From Octopus vulgaris (Eukaryota), in contig OX597814.1 of the NCBI GenBank assembly GCA_951406725.2, positions 7,006,001 to 7,070,000 of the forward strand: DNA of 64,000 nt. The letters run 5' to 3'. Positions within the stretch are counted from its first letter, which is position 1. Every line of letters begins with the position of its first letter. Below the pieces are notes generated by a model. That model saw only the letters and a program-made list of their open reading frames with translations. It was not told the origin of the DNA and ran no database searches. Shown piece after piece: positions 9,871 to 32,300 of this stretch. Both the position numbers and the translations under genes were made by a program.

Positions 9871-10404
9871 ATAAACCAGTTTTGACAATAGAGAATGAAC
9901 GATTTACACAGAAGAAAATTATATAAGTAAAAGTTCCTGTGAATGAATCAAGTAACCAGCATAAATTTGAATTGTGTATAACGGAGGGATGTCAAAGCAA
10001 GAATTTAAACAAATATTTGCCTGGAATATTTTCAGCCGGAATGAATTGTTGCAGAGGAGGATCCATTGAACTAATACTTTATACGGACATTATTTTTTGA
10101 TGAAAAGTGGTTTGTGTTTTGTGGTGCCATTCCTTTGATTGGTAACTGTCTTTGCTTGGTTGGATGCTGTTACACTGGGATCCCACAGGAAGATTAAAGA
10201 AATATGGGTTAAAAGAAGAAGGTTGCAAGAACATTATTTGTTACTTGGGTTACAAAATGAATTTATTTCTTTGTGGTGTGATCTCAATTAAAATCACGCA
10301 CACTATGAAAAAAACCCAACAAAAAACAGAAGAACAAAGGTAGATTACGATTCAATGACAGTTGGTGTAACACTGCATTCTGCATGTGTTGAACAGGTGA
10401 CATT

Positions 10405-10903
10405 TATTATAATAATAATAATAATAATAATAATAAAACATTGTGTACAGTGCTCAGGTGCACTACAACTCATCTAAAATGTATGTATAATCAGGTGTAG
10501 TTTCGGCGGATTTCGGAAAGCATGAGGGCCTTAAAGGATGCAGTGTCATGGCAGTCAACAACTGACGCAGGCAGTTTGTTCCATGCTTCAGCAACTCTGA
10601 GCGTGAAAAAATGTTTCCGAATGTCATGGGAGCTATGCTGTTTTCTGACTTTGTAGGCATGTCCACGTGTGTTGGACACATGGAGATCAAAAAGGTGTTC
10701 AGTGTTGTTGTTGTTGGTGAGGTGGTTGATAACTTTGTGGGTGTTTACCAAGTCCATCGCCAGACGCCGGAGCTTCAGTGAATCCATGCCCAGGGAAACA
10801 AGGCACTCAGAGTATGGTAGGTGTCTGATGGAGGGTATGCGTTTTGTTGCACGTCTCTGAACAGATTCCAGGAGGTCAATGTTCTGAGCAAGATAGGGGT
10901 TCC
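10405..10903 (-). mobile_element. CR1-type LINE 3' end
   Basis: NPYLAQNIDLLESVQRRATKRIP..LPYSECL..L.MDSLKLRRLAMDL...TRGHAYK...FFTLRVAEAWNKLP, with a (tta)n tail. Confidence 0.9.
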
Positions 10904-11328
10904 TATTATATATTACCTTTAAAGTATAAATTGTGAATTTAAGATAGAAATGAAATTTCCATCTTTTGAAAACTTCTGTGGGAGAACAGACATTGCAAAC
11001 TTGAGAAAAGGAGACATTGAGTCAAAATGCATTTCTCATGGAAGATTGCAGAAATCAAATGCTGGCTTATACAAGTGCAAGGCAGAATGGAAGATATTAA
11101 ATGAATATTCTCTCACTGTTTTCTCAGCATGTGGAGGATGTCATATATAAAAATACTCTGCTGAAGAATTACTGAAGTAGTGTCTGTATGTGTTTTCTCT
11201 CTCTCTCTCTCTCTCTGTATATATATATATATATACTACTAATATAGACTGAATTTTTTTTACAGAAAAAAATTTCATCAAAAAAGTGGCAGTATATTAA
11301 AATACCTTTAAAGCCTAAAATTATAAAC

Positions 11329-11714
11329 AACTTATAAACAAGGGCAAAAGAAAATTATTTCTATGCCAATATGCTGATAACAGACTTTTAAATCGTCAAT
11401 TCCCACATATTATTATATACCCGCTACAGAAATACGTTGTGCTGAAATCGAGGAAAGCTAGACAACAGAATTTTTTTAAAAAGTTCGTTATTTCTATATT
11501 GAATCAATTTCGAAATTAATCTCATAATAGATTTTTTTCCTCTTCAGTAGAAAATACAAATAGAAATAAATGAAATACTTACATGCGCCCATGGAAAAAA
11601 TGCCGAAGCAAAAGTCATGAGTACACATAAGTACCCCAGATATATCTAAATATAAAATTCTGTTATCAGCATATTGGCATAGAAATAATTTTCTTTTGCC
11701 CTTGTTTATAAGTT
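11329..11714. repeat. 62-bp inverted repeat pair (MITE-like or inverted duplication)
   Basis: 11329-11390 equals the reverse complement of 11653-11714 with one mismatch. Confidence 0.9.
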
Positions 11715-11728
11715 ATATATATATATAT

Positions 11729-12056
11729 TGCCGGTGGCACGTAAAAAGCACCATCCGTTCGTGGCCGTTGCCAGCGCCGCCCTGACTGGTTTCCATGCCG
11801 GTGGCACATAAAAGCACCATCCGTTTGTGACCGTTTGCCAGCTCCATCTGGCACCTGTGCGGGTGGCACGTAAAAAGCACCCACTACACTCGCGGAGTGG
11901 TTGGCGTTAGGAAGGGCATCCAGCTGTAGAAACACTGCCAGATCAGACTGGGCATGATGCAGCCTTCTGGCTTCACAGACCCCAGTTGAACCGTCCAACC
12001 CATGCTAGCATGGAAAGCGGACGCTAAATGATGATGATGATGATGATGATGATGAT
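11729..12056 (+). mobile_element. RTE-LINE 3' end (family D)
   Basis: 3 hairpin units, D core and (gat)n tail; (TA)n on both flanks. Confidence 0.9.
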
Positions 12057-12062
12057 ATATAT

Positions 12063-13030
12063 ATCTTCCACCCTTTCTGAACCAAACATTTTTGTGAAAG
12101 GAACAAATTTAGAAGTCATTGACACCTTTGTTTACCTTGGAAGCAGACTGTCAAGAGATGGTGGTCTTGATGCAGAGATATACTATTGAATAGGGAAGGG
12201 AACTATTGCAGTTGGAAACCTCGAAAAACGAGTCTGGGTGAATAGAAGTATTTCCCTGCTGACAAAAATCAGTGTCTTTAAAAGGGGGGGTATTGACTGC
12301 ACTTCTTTATTTGAGTAAGATGTGGACCACTTACAGGCATCATATGAAAAGTGCCTCAGACATTTCTTGGGAGACAAGTGGGAATGTTTCATGCAAGATA
12401 CAGAAGTTTTGCGCATGAAACGTAGCTCAAATGAACAATATGTTATCTTGGCTCAAATGAAATGTGCTGGGCATTTTATTAGAATGAAAGGTGAGTGATT
12501 GCCAAAGCATGTTTTTTATGGTGAGCTCAACTCTGGCAACGTAAATCATGGAAAAGGTAAAAAAAACTGTGTGAAGGAAAACCTGAAAAAACTAGATATG
12601 AAGAAAAGTGATTGGCAAAATGATGTTCTGGATGGGGACAAATGGAGAGGTGCTGTTAGTACTGGTTGCAATGCCTGGGAGGAAAAGATGATTCAGCACT
12701 CTGAACTTAAAAGGGCCTGTCACAAAGGAACTTTTGGAACTGTAATCAACAGTGAACATTGGATATGTATTTTGTGTGATCGTGTTCTGTTGTGAAGAAC
12801 AGGAGACGTGAATCATATGAAATCACATGAAAATCAAAATGCCCAGACAGGTAATGATCTTGGACACCAACCACCTCTTACGATTTGTGTCATATGTCAC
12901 AAAAATTCACAACAACAGAATCAGATTTCAAAGGGCAAAGATACCGATGAAACTTGAATAATATCTGTCATCACTTGTGTTTTAAACCCTGTCAGTCGGC
13001 AGCTGCTCTCAAAAGTCATCTGGGGGTTCA
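12063..13030 (+). mobile_element. RTE-clade LINE remnant (second lineage) with C-terminal zinc finger
   Basis: LEVIDTFVYLGSRLSRDGGLDAEI...LPKHVFYGEL...WRGAV...WICILCDRV, with stops and frameshifts. Confidence 0.8.
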
Positions 13031-13352
13031 TTAACAGAGGAATTGTGCTGTGTGATGGGGTGTGGTGTGTGATGGGGTGTGGTGTGTGTGTGTGTTGATG
13101 GGATGGCTATCATCGGTCAACACAAAGCAATCATTGTGTGCGCACATGTGTGTGTGTGCGTCTGTGTGTACATGCACACACATACACACATGTGTATTTC
13201 TATTTTGAATGAAGCAGAATTGATCTTTCGACCAGAATCCAGTCTTGTTCACTCATCCTTTCTGATAAGTGGACATGTTACAGAATTCAGAAGAATTTCA
13301 AAAACCTGACATGCTGATTCTTGATAAATGACATCTGACTTTGTAATGAATT

Positions 13353-13770
13353 TGTAACAGGATCTGGAATCGGTATCACTGGAGGGGTGTCCGATCCGAT
13401 CCTGTCACATTCAATTTTAGTTAAATATAACAGACGAAGTCAGGTTATCTGGGAAAAGACAGCAAATGTTGTTTATTACTCGTGAGGATGTAGATCTGGT
13501 GTATGTATTTCTGAGGGGAACCGACAGCTGAATCTGTTGTACCGCTTCTTGTTGGTTGGTTGAAGTGGTTCGATGTGGTCCGTTGCTAAGTCGGTGCGTA
13601 GTTCTCAGAGACTACCAAATGCACGTCTGTTCACGAGGGCTGCTGGGGCCAGAGAGGCTGAGTGAGTGGACGGTGTTTTAGGGGTCAGTTTCTCGCACAT
13701 GCGCATGGGGAAGACTTCCGGTGGCCACCCGGAAGTAATCCCATTCTGCGCATGCGTGCTGAACCTTACA
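13353..13770 (-). mobile_element. Solo-LTR-like element
   Basis: TGTAA...TTACA termini, about 420 bp, GC/CpG-rich relative to its flanks, AATAAA on the minus strand near 13472; no TSD found. Confidence 0.6.
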
Positions 13771-14128
13771 CAGCAGCATCACTACAAATTTGTCCTGGAA
13801 TAAATTTGTTCCATATTTCACTCAAATTCATTTCTCTGGATATACTTAGTGGCCTAATTAATTTAATTGAATTCTCATTAAGCAGTTAATGATTATTATG
13901 TTAATATGTCAACAGGTGTACAGAGATGCTGACTTGTGACACACCTTCAGTTCTACAGCCAGCATCTTTTCAGTTCTGATTACAAATGCTGCTGATGTTC
14001 CATTCAGCCAAGTGCAGTCTGTACACCCCACCCCACCCTCCGTTTGGCCAGGAGCCATCACAGCAACCACACAGCCCAGCAGCCAGGCACTGCCATCAGT
14101 TTTATCAGCATCCATTGCTACTAGAAAT

Positions 14129-14334
14129 TCTTTATCTTTATCTTTTATCTTTTACTTGTTTCAGTCATTTGACTGCGGCCATGCTGGAGCACCGCCTTTA
14201 GTCGACCAAATCGACCCCGGGACTTATTCTTTTGTAAGCCCAGTACTTATTCTATCAGTCTCTTTCACCGAACCGCTAAGTGACGGGGACATAAACACAC
14301 CAGCATCGGTTGTCAAGCGATGCTAGGGGGACAA

Positions 14335-14398
<64 letters not shown>

Positions 14399-14561
14399 GA
14401 CGGGCTTCTTTCAGTTTCCGTCTATCAAATCCACTCAGAAGGCTTTGGTCGGCCCGAGGCTATAGTAGAAGACACTTGCCCAAGGTGCCATGCAGTGGGA
14501 CTGAACCCGGAACCATGTGGTTGGTAAGCAAGCTACTTACCACACAGCCACTCCTGTGCCT
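14129..14561 (-). mobile_element. tRNA-derived SINE family A
   Basis: Head aggcacaggagtggctgtgtggtaag...gggttcagtccc, internal (TA)/(TG) microsatellite, gaaacaagtaaaag tail. Confidence 0.92.
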
Positions 14562-14899
14562 TTTCTTCCGACTTTTCTACACAAGCTATCCTCTTCCAAC
14601 ACAACATTAACTGGAAACCCACATCTACATATGCAGACTGTATTTCATGTGCAAACATTAATCGTATTTACACATAGATGTATTCACACTCATATACACA
14701 CATGCACATACACACACGCACACACATGTATGTGTACCCTATCAACATAGAATGCCATGTTGACTTTTATTCAAATTTCTTTGGTTATTGTTTGTTGGTG
14801 ATTTGTTGGAAAACCGTTTCCTTTTACATCATCAACATTATTCTGCTGCAGTCTTGGCTGACTGTTAAATTCCTTGCTTGTCCTAACTAAAAAAATAGA

Positions 14900-15180
14900 T
14901 ACTCTCCATTCTGTTGTGTCTGGGGAGAGTCATTTTCTTTTTGTGCCTTATAATGTAACACACTCACCGGTAAAATTTCCACTTATTCTTATTTTTATCT
15001 TCCTAAAATTTGTACATGGAGATCAAAAAGGTGTTCAGTGTTGTTGTCGGTGAGGTGGTTGATAACTTTGTGGGTGTTTACCAAGTCCATCGCCAGACGC
15101 CGGAGTGTTTTCTCAGCATGTGAAGGATGTCATATATAAAAATACTCTGCTGAAGAATTACTGAAGTAGTGTCTGTGTGT

Positions 15181-15257
<77 letters not shown>

Positions 15258-15875
15258 TACTAATATAGAATGAATTTTTTTACAGAAAAAAATTTCATCA
15301 AAAAAGTGGCAGTATATTAAAATACCTTTAAAGGCTAAAATTATAAACAACTTATAAACAACAGCAAAAGGTTCCTTTCCTAAAATTTTCGTTGTGTCTT
15401 GCAACCTTTTCATGATGCAATGAAAATTTTAGGACAATAAAAATAAGAAATAAATGGAAATTTTACCAGTGAGTATATTACATTATAAGGCACAAAAAGA
15501 AAATGACTCTCCCCAGACACAAGAGAATATGCTTCAACACACGAACTCACATAAAGAATCTTGCAAACCCAATCCAAAAACGAAATATATATATAACATT
15601 TACAATATGAATTACAATGAGAAAGATATGGTATACAATTTTTTTGTGCAGGGGTTTCCTTGAGACATGAAATTATTTGAAAAGGTTGCAAGATGCAACG
15701 AAAATTTTAGGAAAATAAAAATAAGAAAAAAAGTGAAAATTTTACCGGTGAGTGTGTTACATTATAAGGCACAAAAAGAAAATGACTCTCCCCAGACACA
15801 ACAAAATATGCTTCAACACACGAACTCATATAAAGAATCTTGCAAACCAAATCCAAAAACGAAATACTCTCCATT
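14900..15875. mobile_element. Inverted and tandem cluster of a non-autonomous DNA-element module
   Basis: One reverse unit (14905-15410) and two forward units (about 15415-15670 and 15690-15875); shares gagaaagatatggtat...gtgcaggggt..ttgagacatg with the hAT-like end at 18008-18060. Confidence 0.7.
15012..15376 (-). pseudogene. Spliced (processed) local copy of 10677-11350
   Basis: Matches 10677-10772 joined to 11117-11350; the missing 10773-11116 reads GTGAGA...CTGAAG on the minus strand; 12-bp TSD ttcctaaaattt. Confidence 0.8.
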
Positions 15876-16075
15876 GTTTTTACTTTAATCTCGGCCAAAT
15901 TACTCTGCATTTCGTCATCTACGTTGACTGGGCCCATAGTTTCCACAACTTCAACAATCCTGTCATTACTGGAGCCCTTTGCATTTGTAATTCCTCTAAT
16001 TTACATCGTTCACAGTTATTACTTCTCCGTCTGCCGCTGTTACTTTGTCAGATTTTGATATCAGCATACAGCAGT

Positions 16076-17936: not shown

Positions 17937-18699
17937 GTGTGTGTGTGTGTGTGTGTGTGCATGTGTATGTGTGTGATATTTACCATGTGAACTATGTTGA
18001 AAAAATATGAGAAAGATATGGTATCTAATTTTTTTTTGTGCAGGGGTTCTTTGAGACATGTAATTTATTTTAAGGGTTACTCAAGGGGAAAAAGGGTTGA
18101 GAAACACTGGTGTTAATATATATATATGAATGACGTTGGAACATTTCCCTAGATGGCCCACTTGTGGAGCAAACATAATTAATGCTGTGTGCCAAAAATG
18201 TTCTATTTTGATTAAAATTGAACTCAGAATGAGAAAAAAGCCGTTAATGACAAAAGTGATTTGTAACAATTTTTGTCATTAGGGAAAAGAGGGAAAACTG
18301 CTAAATTTAAATTTAGAAAAATTAAATAGACATACTATTGAGAGAGAAATTTATCTTTCATATTCATAAACTACAACTACTGACATGTTTCTTTCTTATT
18401 AGACCTCATCAGGGAAATGTAACCTTTACTACATATTAAAACAATTGAGAAAATTCAATTTTATGGTTGGGAATAATTCACTGATTAAGCAATTTAAAAT
18501 AATGGCATTGGATAACTTTCCAATGGTGTCTTCTGAGTGGAAACCATTGGGTTGAACGTTTTGGCTAGTTTAGCTCAGTTGACACTCTTGGTGCACTCAG
18601 TTTCTGATCTTTAGGGGGTTGTGGGTGGGTACAAATCTTCAAATTTTTCTATACCCACTTTGGTCTGGCCACAAACATAATGAAGATGAAGATCGTTGC

Positions 18700-26830: not shown

Positions 26831-27396
26831 CTATCAACAACAACAATGTCATTTAATGTCTGTTTTTATGTTGGTTTGAGCCGGACAGTTTAACAGGATC
26901 TGGTAAGCCAAAGGACTGCACCAGGCTCCTGTTGCCTATTTTGGCATGGTTTCTGCGACTGGATGCCCTTCCTAACGCTAACCGCTTTACAGAGTAAATT
27001 TCAAAAATTCCTAGAGCTCATAAACGAGATAACCACATACTGCTTCTACATGCACAGATATAATGAATCTTTCTAGCAATGTTATTCATACCAATATTGT
27101 CTTTCTTGCGCTCATCATTCATCTGTGAACTTAACCAAAATATTTATTCTATCTTCACAGTAGTTTATCTTCCCCAAGATCGGTTAACGGACTTAGAGGG
27201 GTGCAATCTGCATCTCAGATACAAAAATATAATGATAAAATAATTCCTAAAATACTTGGCAAACATTTTGAAATGCAGAAAATTGAAAATAAAAACAGGA
27301 GTTGAATAAAATATGTGAATCCCTTTGAAATTATGGCTTGTTTTTAAATTTAATGCCTTTGATACCATTTTAGAGTCTACTTTTCGATGCTTTGAT

Positions 27397-28517
27397 GGGT
27401 GAGACAAGACAAGATAGAATTTGACAGGTGAGACAAGATATGATAGAATTTGACAGGTGAGACAAGACAAGATAGAATTTGACAGGTGAGACAAGACAAG
27501 ATAGAATTTGACAGGTGAGACAAGACAAGATAGAATTTGACAGGTGAGACAAGACAAGATAGAATTTGACAGGTGAGACAAGACAAGATAGAATTTGACA
27601 GGTGAGACAAGACAAGATAGAATTTGACAGGTGAGACAAGACAAGATAGAATTTGACAGGTGAGACAAGACAAGATAGAATTTGACAGGTGAGACAAGAC
27701 AAGATAGAATTTGACAGGTGAGACAAGACAAGATAGAATTTGACAGGTGAGACAAGACAAGATAGAATTTGACAGGTGAGACAAGACAAGATAGAATTTG
27801 ACAGGTGAGACAAGACAAGATAGAATTTGACAGGTGAGACAAGGCAAGATAGAATTTGACAGGTGAGACAAGACAAGATAGAATTTGACAGGTGAGACAA
27901 GACAAGATAGAATTTGACAGGTGAGACAAGACAAGATAGAATTTGACAGGTGAGACAAGACAAGATAGAATTTGACAGGTGAGACAAGACAAGATAGAAT
28001 TTGACAGGTGAGACAAGACAAGATAGAATTTGACAAGTGAGACAAGACAAGATAGAATTTGACAGGTGAGACAAGACAAGATAGAATTTGACAGGTGAGA
28101 CAAGGCAAGATAGAATTTGACAGGTGAGACAAGACAAGATAGAATTTGACAGGTGAGACAAGACAAGATAGAATTTGACAGGTGAGACAAGACAAGATAG
28201 AATTTGACAGGTGAGACAAGACAAGATAGAATTTGACAGGTGAGACAAGACAAGATAGAATTTGACAGGTGAGACAAGACAAGATAGAATTTGACAGGTG
28301 AGACAAGATATGATAGAATTTGACAGGTGAGACAAGACAAGATAGAATTTGACAGGTGAGACAAGACAAGATAGAATTTGACAGGTGAGACAAGACAAGA
28401 TAGAATTTGACAGGTGAGACAAGACAAGATAGAATTTGACAGGTGAGACAAGACAAGATAGAATTTGACAGGTGAGACAAGACAAGATAGAATTTGACAG
28501 GTGAGACAAGACAAGAC
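27397..28517. repeat. 29-bp tandem satellite, about 38 copies
   Basis: Unit gacaggtgagacaagacaagatagaattt, nearly invariant, no spacers. Confidence 0.97.
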
Positions 28518-29998: not shown

Positions 29999-31244
29999 TT
30001 GAGTCATCCCATAAATAATGCGGTTTTCTTATACTTTTATTTTTCATAATTAAGATAAACAAAGTATTTTTCAATCTAAAATATACTCTCCTTCATTTTC
30101 TACAATGCTCTTCCATCTCTCTGGTAGACTTGCAAGACCCCTCTTCCAAAATTCACTTGTCTGTGAGGAAAAATACTCCTCCAGTACTGTTCTGACCTCG
30201 TCTGTAGAATTAATATTTTTCCATCCAAATCATTTTGACGACTGCAGAATAAATGATAATCAGATGGGGCAATGTCCAGCGAATATGGTGGCTGGAGCAT
30301 TGTTTCTCATTCAGGCAGCTCCAACCTTTGGAATGTTATCCTCGCTGTATGTGGCCGAGCATCATCCTGATGGAAGAGCATCTTTCTTCTTGCAACCAAA
30401 GATGGTCATTTTTCTTCTGGTGCTGACTTAAGCTACTCAAGCTGCTTACAGTAGATTTCATTTGTTATCATTTGGTTTGGGTTTAAAAGTTCAAAGTGGA
30501 CTAAACCTTTCATATCCCACCAAAGAAATAACAACACCTTACGTGGGTGAAGACCTTCTTTAGTCTGGGATGCTGGCGTTTTTCCTTTCCCTACCCACAG
30601 TCTTCGGCATTTGATATTTTTATAGAGAACACATTTCTCCCCACCAGTCACTATATGGTTCAAAAAAGGTCTATTCATGAGACATGACAGCAAAGAAGAG
30701 CACTCATTCACTCTCTGCATGCGATTAAACTTGCAAAGTTTGTGAGGAACCCACTGACCCAATTTGTGAGGAAGCCATTGACGCAGGTGTCGATGAATGG
30801 TTCAATGACCAAATCCAAGCTTCTCTGCTAGTTCCTCAACAGTAACGATGGGATTTTGTCTGACCAGGATTTGCAGAATGTCCTCATCGAGCTCTACAGA
30901 TCTTCCAGTATGAGGCTCATCTTTTAGGCCGTAGTTACCGGCTCAGAATTTCTGGAACTGCTGTTGACACCATAGACTGCATTACTATTCCTCACACTTT
31001 CCATTGCGTTGTTGCCTTTATTGAACTCGTAAAGCAAAATATGCTCCTTTGTCACTTACATTATAGATTTGGAAAAATAATTGTTAAAATCAAACTGCAC
31101 ACTTCAAAACTTGTACTAAGAATAAGGACAAGGTAAAATTACTAACTACTTTTATAGCACGTTGATGCAGTTAGTTAATCCCACCCCGCTCCAACTTTTA
31201 GTTATGCAATTGAAAAAAACCGCATTATTTATGGGATGACCCAA
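29999..31244 (-). mobile_element. Full-length decayed mariner (DD34D)
   Basis: ~28-bp TIRs ttg(a/g)gtcatcccataaataatgcggtttt, TA TSD, WVPHKL and YSLDIAPSDYHLF motifs, several stops and frameshifts. Confidence 0.95.
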
Positions 31245-31368: not shown

Positions 31369-31468
31369 NNNNNNNNNNNNNNNNNNNNNNNNNNNNNNNN
31401 NNNNNNNNNNNNNNNNNNNNNNNNNNNNNNNNNNNNNNNNNNNNNNNNNNNNNNNNNNNNNNNNNNNN
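31369..31468. other. Assembly gap (100 N)
   Basis: Run of N. Confidence 1.
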
Positions 31469-31479
31469 ACATACATACA

Positions 31480-32300
31480 TAGCTGAATCACTTCCAGAAC
31501 CAGAGAAGATTATAACCAAATCGTTTCTGGAACTTGAGAAGAAATTCCAGGTGTGGAAACAAGATCTAGAATCAAAGGTGCCTTAAGAGTTAATCTAGCA
31601 AAAACCAAATTCTTAGTATGTTGGAAAGCGGACAAATCTCAAATCCCTTCAGGTAGCTGACCCTGCTCGATCTGTAGAAAAGGCTTAGGTAGAAACTCCA
31701 TAAGATGCACCCAGTGTAAGCTATGGACACATAAGAGGTGCAACAACATCAGAGGAAGGTTAACAGGGAAAATAGTTTTTGTGTGTGGAAGGTGCACAGG
31801 TACAACAAGCACTGAAAATGTACAGAAAATAGACTTCATCAAATGCCAGTGGGGAAAACTAGAAGTAGTTGATAGCTTTCATTATCTAGGTGACCAAGTC
31901 AACAATGAGGTGGATGCTCCAAGAGTGTAGCTGCTAGAATAAGAATAGGCTGTGCAAAGTTCCTGCATCTGTTGGTAACAAAGGGCCTCTCCCTCAGAGT
32001 GAAAGGCAGATTGTATGATGCCTGTGTGTGAACAGCCATGCTACATGGCAGTGAAACATGGGCTGTGACCACCAAAGATATGTACAGGCCTGAAAGAAAT
32101 GAAGCTAGTATGTTTTACTGGATGTGCAATGTCAGTGTGAATGCACAAGAGTGTAAGCATCTTGAGAGAAAAGTTGGGCATAAGAGGCATCAGATGTAGT
32201 GTGCAAGAGAGACAACTGCACTGGTGTGGTCATGTGATGTGTAAGGATGAGGACAGCAGTGTAAAGAAGTGCCAATCTCTAACTGTGGAGGGAACCTGTT
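31480..32300 (+). mobile_element. RTE LINE ORF remnant with a PHD finger inside the RT
   Basis: RVNLAKTKFLV...CSIC..CTQC..HKRC..CGRC...LEVVDSFHYLG...SLRVKGRLYDACV..LHGSETW...LHWCGHV. Confidence 0.9.

What the first reader, a model, noticed from the sequence alone, without database searches (positions are those of the whole stretch)
10677..15388. Spliced, poly(A)-less RNA-templated copy inserted about 4 kb from its source
Seen: 15012-15376 reproduces 10677-10772 fused to 11117-11350. The missing 344 bp (10773-11116) has an unambiguous junction with no microhomology and reads GTGAGA...CTGAAG on the minus strand, a canonical GT-AG intron with a GTGAG donor. The insert is flanked by a 12-bp duplication (ttcctaaaattt, 15000-15011 and 15377-15388) that is single in the intact sister unit near 15700. 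It has no poly(A) or LINE tail. The source is non-coding (unique DNA spliced into a CR1 remnant). Inference: a cryptically spliced nascent or local transcript was reverse-transcribed into a nearby break in cis (RNA-templated repair or local retroposition) rather than forming a classic processed pseudogene. The host module sits in an inverted, hairpin-prone cluster.
Basis: partly seen in the sequence, partly recalled or inferred. Interest (0 to 1): 0.85.

Follow-up and report, generated by a model that had tools for sequence, protein, structure and literature searches.

The report
Retroelement captured a spliced neighbouring transcript
A 365-base copy of DNA lying 4 kb away, lacking a stretch with exact intron-like ends, sits inside an insertion of a Penelope-like retroelement, likely because the element's reverse transcriptase jumped onto a spliced RNA made next door; two other copies of the element also hold pieces of nearby DNA, but without an intron lost.

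Summary
In detail: 15014-15370 copies 10678-10772 joined to 11117-11350. The missing 344 bp reads GTGAG...AG on the minus strand with no microhomology (0.012% of random local deletions on that strand, 1.0% for any GT-AG).

The 'hairpin cluster' is one insertion (14911-15864, own 12-bp target duplication) of a high-copy Penelope-like family (F1). It has an inverted arm, two direct units and 85 bp carried from a copy 198 Mb away. The copy sits in the inverted arm. Half of the 'unique' exon is the 3' end of a second, hammerhead-bearing repeat (F2) on the same strand as the intron.

Among 210 other distinct F1 loci, 2 clearly hold nearby DNA (0.5-8 kb away) and 3 are ambiguous. None lost a GT-AG intron; one clear case lost 193 bp at a 2-bp microhomology.

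Best reading (0.6): the Penelope-type reverse transcriptase jumped onto a locally made, spliced read-through RNA during integration. Splicing was not seen in RNA, and reads were not examined. An L1 precedent exists, so this is a new variant of a known kind.

The parts
10406..10903 (-). 3' remnant of a young non-LTR retrotransposon (CR1-type; label recalled from its translated motif, no Pfam hit); supplies the acceptor and second exon
   Evidence: 1083 candidates; 8 remote copies 95-97% identical; no Pfam family
10678..10772 (-). source of the copy, downstream exon part (inside the CR1 remnant)
10773..11116 (-). 344-bp segment missing from the copy; GTGAG donor, AG acceptor after a 33-nt AG-free stretch; inferred cryptic intron
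11117..11350 (-). source of the copy, upstream exon part: unique DNA and microsatellite (11117-~11235) plus the 3' end of repeat F2
11227..11721 (-). repeat family F2, retrozyme/Penelope-pLTR-like, with inverted arm 11650-11721; likely origin of the read-through RNA
   Evidence: (2378 candidates)
11491..11553 (-). type I hammerhead ribozyme motif in F2 (predicted cleavage after 11497)
   Evidence: descriptor hit here and in 5 of 7 remote copies; not reported by Rfam
14899..14910 (+). left 12-bp target-site duplication of the whole host insertion
14908..15011 (-). inverted arm of host family F1, left part, starting at the family's fixed internal site
15012..15376 (-). the 365-bp captured copy (2 extra nt, 10678-10772 + 11117-11350, 6 extra nt), flanked by the 12-bp duplication 15000-15011 / 15377-15388
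15377..15412 (-). inverted arm of F1, right part
15408..15587 (+). direct F1 unit B; shares 3 departures from the family's commonest letters with the remote copy L035
15588..15676 (+). 3' flank carried from the remote F1 copy at G000:C1:205.07 Mb (99% over 85 bp; next best hit 88% over 83 bp)
15677..15866 (+). direct F1 unit C, ending at the family's 3' end
15865..15876 (+). right 12-bp target-site duplication of the host insertion

Best explanation
The 365-bp piece is a copy of nearby DNA with a GT-AG-bounded stretch removed, lying in the inverted arm of a Penelope-like insertion, and it likely arose when the element's reverse transcriptase jumped onto a locally made, spliced RNA during integration. 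Inferred steps: (1) a minus-strand transcript ran from or through the hammerhead-bearing F2 repeat into its flank and was spliced from a cryptic donor at 11116 to an acceptor inside the CR1 remnant; (2) a Penelope-type endonuclease cut both strands 12 nt apart at 14899-14910; (3) from the right end the enzyme copied one F1 RNA (unit C), then jumped to a read-through RNA of the remote copy L035 (flank + unit B); (4) from the left end it copied an F1 RNA from the internal 'tail' site, added 2 nt, jumped to the end of the local spliced RNA, copied 329 nt and returned to F1 12 nt back. A second 12-nt-staggered cut by the same enzyme in the new arm would leave the same scar and is counted under this explanation.
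For: Shown:
- Anatomy and one outer 12-bp duplication.
- F1 layout: 57 of 94 other loci have inverted + direct arms, and the inverted arm starts about 57 nt inside the 3' end. Papers describe this 'tail' and inverted pLTR for Penelope-like elements (PMC11167929 parts 1-2; PMC3846280 and PMC8557442 passages).
- L253 joins F1 to a 253-aa GIY-YIG-like ORF end.
- Modal F1 duplication is 12 bp (21 of 48 called among 58 examined, ours included), equal to the copy's.
- The intron lies on the strand that would template a + strand extension from the left end, and on the sense strand of F2.
- Source and copy share letters absent from all 6 remote F2 copies.
- Ages agree roughly: 7 substitutions source/copy (about 2.5%); 3 in about 150 for B/L035.
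- Local capture recurs in the same slot: L141, 304 bp from 7.5-8 kb; L107, 171 bp from 0.5-0.8 kb inside a 13-bp duplication.
- In vitro a Penelope protein cuts and extends both strands and starts without primer homology (PMC11167929).
Against: - Splicing is not observed in RNA and no reads were examined.
- The acceptor is weak (AAG; 59% pyrimidine in the 32 nt before it; 15 of 69 local AGs have an equally long AG-free run).
- Neither other internal deletion seen in a local copy is GT-AG: L141 lost 193 bp at a 2-bp microhomology; L149 is ambiguous. L141 and L107 have microhomology at some junctions and, like ours, are same-strand copies, which DNA templating explains equally.
- 5 of the 6 other inserts that split an F1 arm are known repeats; the 4 SINEs lie in both orientations, two with 9-11-bp duplications, so later insertions into F1 arms are common and a ~12-bp duplication is not specific.
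- Pfam did not call GIY-YIG on the L253 ORF end (best related hit E 0.03); only 1 of 30 GIY-YIG loci matched it.
- 20 short junction patches showed no local templating.
- The finding was picked because of its GT-AG ends.
Confidence: 0.6

Rival explanations
1. Later, independent local retroposition: the same spliced RNA was reverse-transcribed at a new staggered nick made by a LINE or Penelope enzyme in the already fixed, AT-rich F1 arm.
For: Exact 12-bp duplication around the piece. SINEs inserted later into F1 arms with 9-11-bp duplications (L168, L235). Tailless retrocopies with duplications are known for L1 (PMC5322556 abstract).
Against: It leaves the 4-kb distance unexplained in a 2.8-Gb genome. 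It needs two rare foreign pieces to meet in one 950-bp insertion by chance; no remote-flank spacer was noticed in the 57 other two-armed loci. There is no primer complementarity at the start site. L141 and L107 show capture with no inner duplication.
Confidence: 0.19
2. DNA-templated local copying (template switching by a repair polymerase while the Penelope insertion was being resolved), with the 344-bp loss being a jump whose ends read GT..AG by chance.
For: L141 and L107 are same-strand local copies with 2-5-nt microhomologies; L141's internal deletion is not an intron. No host gene exon was found in about 110 kb around. The case was selected for its GT-AG ends among many windows.
Against: Chance of GTRAG..AG on the predicted strand is 0.012% per deletion. 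There is no microhomology at the deletion or at the entry junction. 11116 is one of only 2 GTRAG sites on the minus strand of 10401-11720. The strand agrees with the sense of F2.
Confidence: 0.14
3. RNA-templated repair of an ordinary break by a host polymerase, unrelated to the retroelement.
For: Spliced RNA can template repair in human cells (PMC12065846 passages). RNA-derived patches at breaks are known (PMC5110952 passages).
Against: The first restores the homologous site (whole-intron deletion in place). The patches described come from distant loci and lack duplications. Here there is a 12-bp duplication and the site lies in a retroelement arm.
Confidence: 0.05
4. Assembly artefact.
For: No reads were examined; the region is repeat-rich.
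Against: Source and copy differ at 7 positions with changes on both sides. There are two nested exact duplications. The only N run is 16 kb away.
Confidence: 0.02

Closest known systems
L1 co-insertion of a nearby precursor mRNA by reverse-transcriptase strand switching (PMC10191854, passages read)
   Same: RNA transcribed near the insertion site is copied into a retrotransposon insertion.
   Different: One somatic human L1 case, precursor RNA. Here the element is Penelope-like, the piece is in a genome assembly, appears spliced and sits in the inverted arm, and nearby capture recurs in the family.
Penelope capture and trans-mobilisation of host DNA in Adineta vaga (PMC3846280, passages read)
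   Same: Direct + inverted pLTRs, tail, 8-10-bp target duplication, host sequence between pLTRs, template jumps proposed.
   Different: There introns are retained and the source is not described as local in the passages seen; here an intron-like stretch is lost and the source is 4 kb away.
LINE-1/RNA chimeras by template switching or twin priming (PMC13174262, passages read)
   Same: A second RNA is copied in the same event; opposite-end priming gives antisense pieces.
   Different: Partners are abundant small RNAs, Alu or mRNAs; local origin is not a feature in the passages seen.
Tailless retropseudogenes (PMC5322556, abstract only) and templated sequence insertions (PMC5110952, passages)
   Same: RNA-derived inserts without poly(A); the former with target duplications.
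   Different: L1-dependent or break-repair patches from distant loci; class 1 inserts have poly(A), class 2 have no duplication.
Non-LTR retrozymes (10.64898/2026.07.22.740005, part 1 of 5 read)
   Same: F2 is a short non-coding repeat with a type I hammerhead, often in partial tandems.
   Different: This F2 copy has one hammerhead only; read-through splicing and capture are not in the part read.

Membership tests
Penelope-like element (host F1) | Direct/inverted pLTR layout with a 'tail' missing from the inverted arm | tested here: met
   57 of 94 other loci have both arms; inverted arm starts about 57 nt from the 3' end; longer than the 30-40 bp in the papers
Penelope-like element (host F1) | Short target-site duplication around the whole unit | tested here: met
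   48 of 58 two-armed loci gave a call; mode 12 bp (caller allows 1 mismatch, L091/093/094 are copies of one insertion)
Penelope-like element (host F1) | Linked ORF with C-terminal GIY-YIG endonuclease | tested here: inconclusive
   L253: 253-aa ORF end with GIY-YIG-like motifs by eye; tblastn E 6e-6 to 1 of 30 GIY-YIG loci; Pfam T5orf172 only E 0.03
Penelope-like element (host F1) | Telomerase-like RT domain in the same ORF | not tested
   no full-length F1 copy was fetched
Penelope-like element (host F1) | Hammerhead motif in the pLTR | tested here: inconclusive
   variant core and stem II present, stem I under 4 bp, descriptor not met; same for the 781-aa family's pLTR
Non-LTR retrozyme (F2) | Type I hammerhead | tested here: met
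   descriptor hit in source and 5 of 7 remote copies; 0 of 248 window tiles (a tile edge split the true site); Rfam gave no hammerhead among 29 hits; MFE z -1.0
Non-LTR retrozyme (F2) | Tandem units each with a hammerhead | tested here: not met
   one motif in this copy; partial tandems in remote copies
Processed (L1-type) pseudogene | Poly(A) tail and distant insertion | tested here: not met
   no tail; 3.7-4.3 kb from source
Spliceosomal intron (10773-11116) | GT..AG ends with precise exon junction | tested here: met
Spliceosomal intron (10773-11116) | Junction seen in RNA | not tested
   no reads were laid; no RNA holder listed
RNA-templated break repair (whole-intron deletion) | Intron removed at its own locus | tested here: not met
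   source keeps the 344 bp

The most novel reading that the evidence does not exclude
Penelope-type integration happens at, and samples RNA from, transcribed chromatin: the second, left-end reverse transcription routinely hops onto nascent local transcripts. About 1-2% of F1 insertions would then be fossils of germline non-coding RNA, including cryptic splice events, and would record that Penelope enzymes can use spliced sense RNA despite their known intron retention.
Probability: 0.35. Interest if true: 0.75.

Novelty: new variant of a known kind. Interest (0 to 1): 0.52.

Why it matters
The papers read call the Penelope transposition cycle largely undefined and note that these elements keep introns, with sense-versus-antisense templating left open (PMC3846280, PMC8557442 passages). 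A spliced local RNA inside an inverted arm would show that the arm is made by reverse transcription at the target, that the enzyme jumps between unrelated RNAs, and that it can use spliced RNA. With at least 1,932 exact copies of one F1 39-mer in this genome and local capture in about 1% of those sampled, tens of cases should exist, so the RNA-versus-DNA question can be settled by counting GT-AG losses and strand bias in one assembly. The locus itself has no sign of function.

Tried and rejected
- Fused sequence as a dispersed repeat: rejected. Only the copy matches the junction query end to end among 40 scored of 1083 candidates. A pattern for CR1 copies that break at the acceptor gave 3 hits, ours and 2 ordinary 5'-truncated tailed copies (the pattern would catch under half of such breaks).
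- 11322-11721 as a MITE whose hairpin stopped the RT: dropped; it is the inverted arm of F2.
- 15617-15681 as a capture from 18007-18073: rejected; both belong to a dispersed repeat and the 99% source is remote.
- Host gene on the minus strand: 150 of 278 filtered window ORFs and 150 of 159 further ORFs from the window and 50 kb of neighbours gave only transposon domains and one PHD hit in what looks like a LINE remnant. Short exons could be missed. 150 of 151 ORFs near L141 and L107 gave two RT hits and one weak Cep192-domain hit below its cut-off.
- F1/F2 as the pLTR of the 781-aa Penelope family: no close match in 30 loci.
- Short junction patches as local copies: 0 of 20 stood out.
- Sequencing runs: no RNA holder listed.
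- Local hits inspected and set aside: L152 by sequence; L111, L158, L301, L316 by coordinates outside the insertion; L252, duplication of its own left flank. L149, L246, L293 remain ambiguous.
- Earlier scan findings: none returned.
- Literature: searches found no report of local spliced capture by a Penelope element; the library lacks most subscription papers, and supplements were not read.
Full report
1. Observation. The window is G000:C1:7006001-7070000 of a 2.8-Gb assembly; its repeats look cephalopod to me (recalled, untested). 15014-15105 matches 10678-10772 and 15106-15370 matches 11117-11350. Two extra bases precede and six follow. The 12-bp duplication at 15000-15011 / 15377-15388 is exact, and the missing 344 bp reads GTGAGA...CTGAAG on the minus strand with no shiftable junction. 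The unique part occurs only at source and copy. All 8 remote CR1-type copies shown run through the acceptor site, so the copy lost the segment. Among 119,137 possible local deletions, 1.0% are GT..AG on either strand and 0.012% are GTRAG..AG on the minus strand; a control region gave 1.05% and 0.015%. The acceptor is weak.

2. The source. It is a chain of three pieces. 11227-11721 is a high-copy repeat, F2 (2378 candidates), with partial tandems and inverted arms in remote copies. It carries a type I hammerhead motif on the minus strand at 11491-11553, also found in 5 of 7 remote copies. Rfam did not report it and the free fold was not significant. Downstream on that strand come a microsatellite, about 80 bp of unique DNA, the donor, and the CR1-type remnant 10406-10903 holding the acceptor. 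Source and copy share letters absent from 6 remote F2 copies, and each has private changes, so this locus is the source and both have drifted (7 substitutions). No host exon was found nearby, so F2 read-through is the simplest origin of a minus-strand RNA (inference).

3. The host. 14911-15864 is bounded by its own 12-bp duplication. It belongs to family F1 (2361 candidates; 1,932 exact hits to one 39-mer). I took the first 94 other loci listed: 57 have inverted and direct arms, 13 only an inverted arm, 24 only a direct arm; the inverted arm starts about 57 nt inside the 3' end; 12 bp is the commonest duplication (21 of 48 called among 58, ours included). This is the tail, inverted pLTR and tandem layout described for Penelope-like elements (PMC11167929, parts 1-2 of 4 read; PMC3846280 and PMC8557442, passages). 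L253 links F1 to an ORF end with GIY-YIG-like motifs, weakly supported. GIY-YIG frames up to 781 aa are plentiful in the genome (148 of 150 scored), but F1 is not the pLTR of the 30 loci examined. Unit B plus 15588-15676 matches a solo F1 copy and its flank 198 Mb away (99% over 85 bp; shared letters). The insertion is therefore a composite of at least three templates.

4. Does local capture recur? I examined 212 other F1 loci (94 + 40 with 5 kb flanks, 78 with 1.5 kb flanks); L093 and L094 repeat L091, leaving 210, and 12 repeats of earlier loci were dropped. Two are clear. L141 holds 304 bp inside its inverted arm, copied at about 100% from 7.5-8.0 kb away; it lacks 193 bp at a 2-bp microhomology, not GT-AG on either strand, and has no inner duplication. 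L107 has, in place of an inverted arm and inside a 13-bp duplication, a 171-bp 97% copy of DNA 450-620 bp beyond its 3' end. L149, L246 and L293 are ambiguous. The rate is a lower bound: flanks were short and many loci gave no duplication call. Inserts splitting an arm fell in inverted arms 7 times and direct arms 0 times among 170 other loci (p 0.004); one of the 7 (L211) is F1-internal, 5 are known repeats with SINEs in both orientations, none appeared in the 40 further loci, and the test is post hoc. Twenty short junction patches were not locally templated.

5. Mechanism. Shown: the anatomy, the strand agreement, the family signatures, recurrence of local capture. Inferred: that the template was RNA, that it was spliced, and that capture and host insertion were one event. 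A Penelope protein in vitro cuts and extends both strands and starts without primer homology (PMC11167929). A + strand extension from the left cut would copy F1 RNA to make the inverted arm and would copy a minus-strand local RNA with the same polarity, as seen. Entry has no microhomology and 2 extra bases, which fits a jump to an RNA end (recalled from R2-type enzymes). The 12-bp duplication could be re-entry 12 nt back, as partial re-copies occur in other F1 loci, or a second staggered cut. I put this at 0.6, later independent local retroposition at 0.19, DNA templating with chance GT-AG at 0.14, host RNA-templated repair at 0.05 and misassembly at 0.02. The main evidence against is that no other capture lost an intron and that no RNA or read data were examined.

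6. Known relatives. One somatic L1 insertion with a co-inserted nearby precursor mRNA is reported (PMC10191854, passages). L1-RNA chimeras (PMC13174262, passages), tailless retrocopies (PMC5322556, abstract), templated insertions from distant loci (PMC5110952, passages), whole-intron deletion by RNA-templated repair (PMC12065846, passages) and intron-retaining Penelope capture of host genes (PMC3846280, passages) each share part of the picture. PMC13282606 (passages) lists active Penelope and CR1 families in an octopus genome; PMC13526784 (passages) added nothing. Searches found no local spliced capture by a Penelope element; supplements were not read.

7. Verdict. Real feature, new variant of a known kind, interest 0.52. 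It is a single spliced case, but it points to a countable class in this genome that can test how Penelope-like elements integrate.

Noticed in passing
L141:4690-4993 (G000:C1:108923765-108924068); source C1:108915770-108916261: Very young 304-bp local capture inside an F1 inverted arm, with a 193-bp non-intron deletion and microhomology junctions.
   Followed up: yes
L107 (G000:C1:34071736-34081735), beside the F1 unit: 171-bp 97% copy of nearby downstream DNA fills the inverted-arm slot inside a 13-bp target duplication.
   Followed up: yes
L149, L246, L293: Ambiguous local duplicates next to F1 arms (direct with a 69-bp gap; inverted; direct 128 bp at 98%); no reliable target duplication.
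   Followed up: partly
L097, L168, L198, L235, L263: Later repeat insertions split F1 inverted arms but none split a direct arm; unexplained, post hoc.
   Followed up: partly
L057, L062 and other GIY-YIG loci: Many 781-aa open frames of one Penelope-like family, whose pLTR carries a hammerhead-like core with a U3/A8 variant (by eye); F1 has a similar core.
   Followed up: partly
L026: Six short re-copies of the F1 5' end in tandem, suggesting repeated re-initiation by the reverse transcriptase.
   Followed up: no
L091, L093, L094; L027, L028: Same F1 insertion and target duplication at several places: segmental copies.
   Followed up: no
window 27391-28516: 58-bp tandem array at about 98% identity.
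   Followed up: no
window 30436-30801 (-); 31661-31927 (+); 31369-31468: Mariner-type transposase fragment; PHD-finger hit in a probable LINE remnant; a 100-N assembly gap.
   Followed up: no
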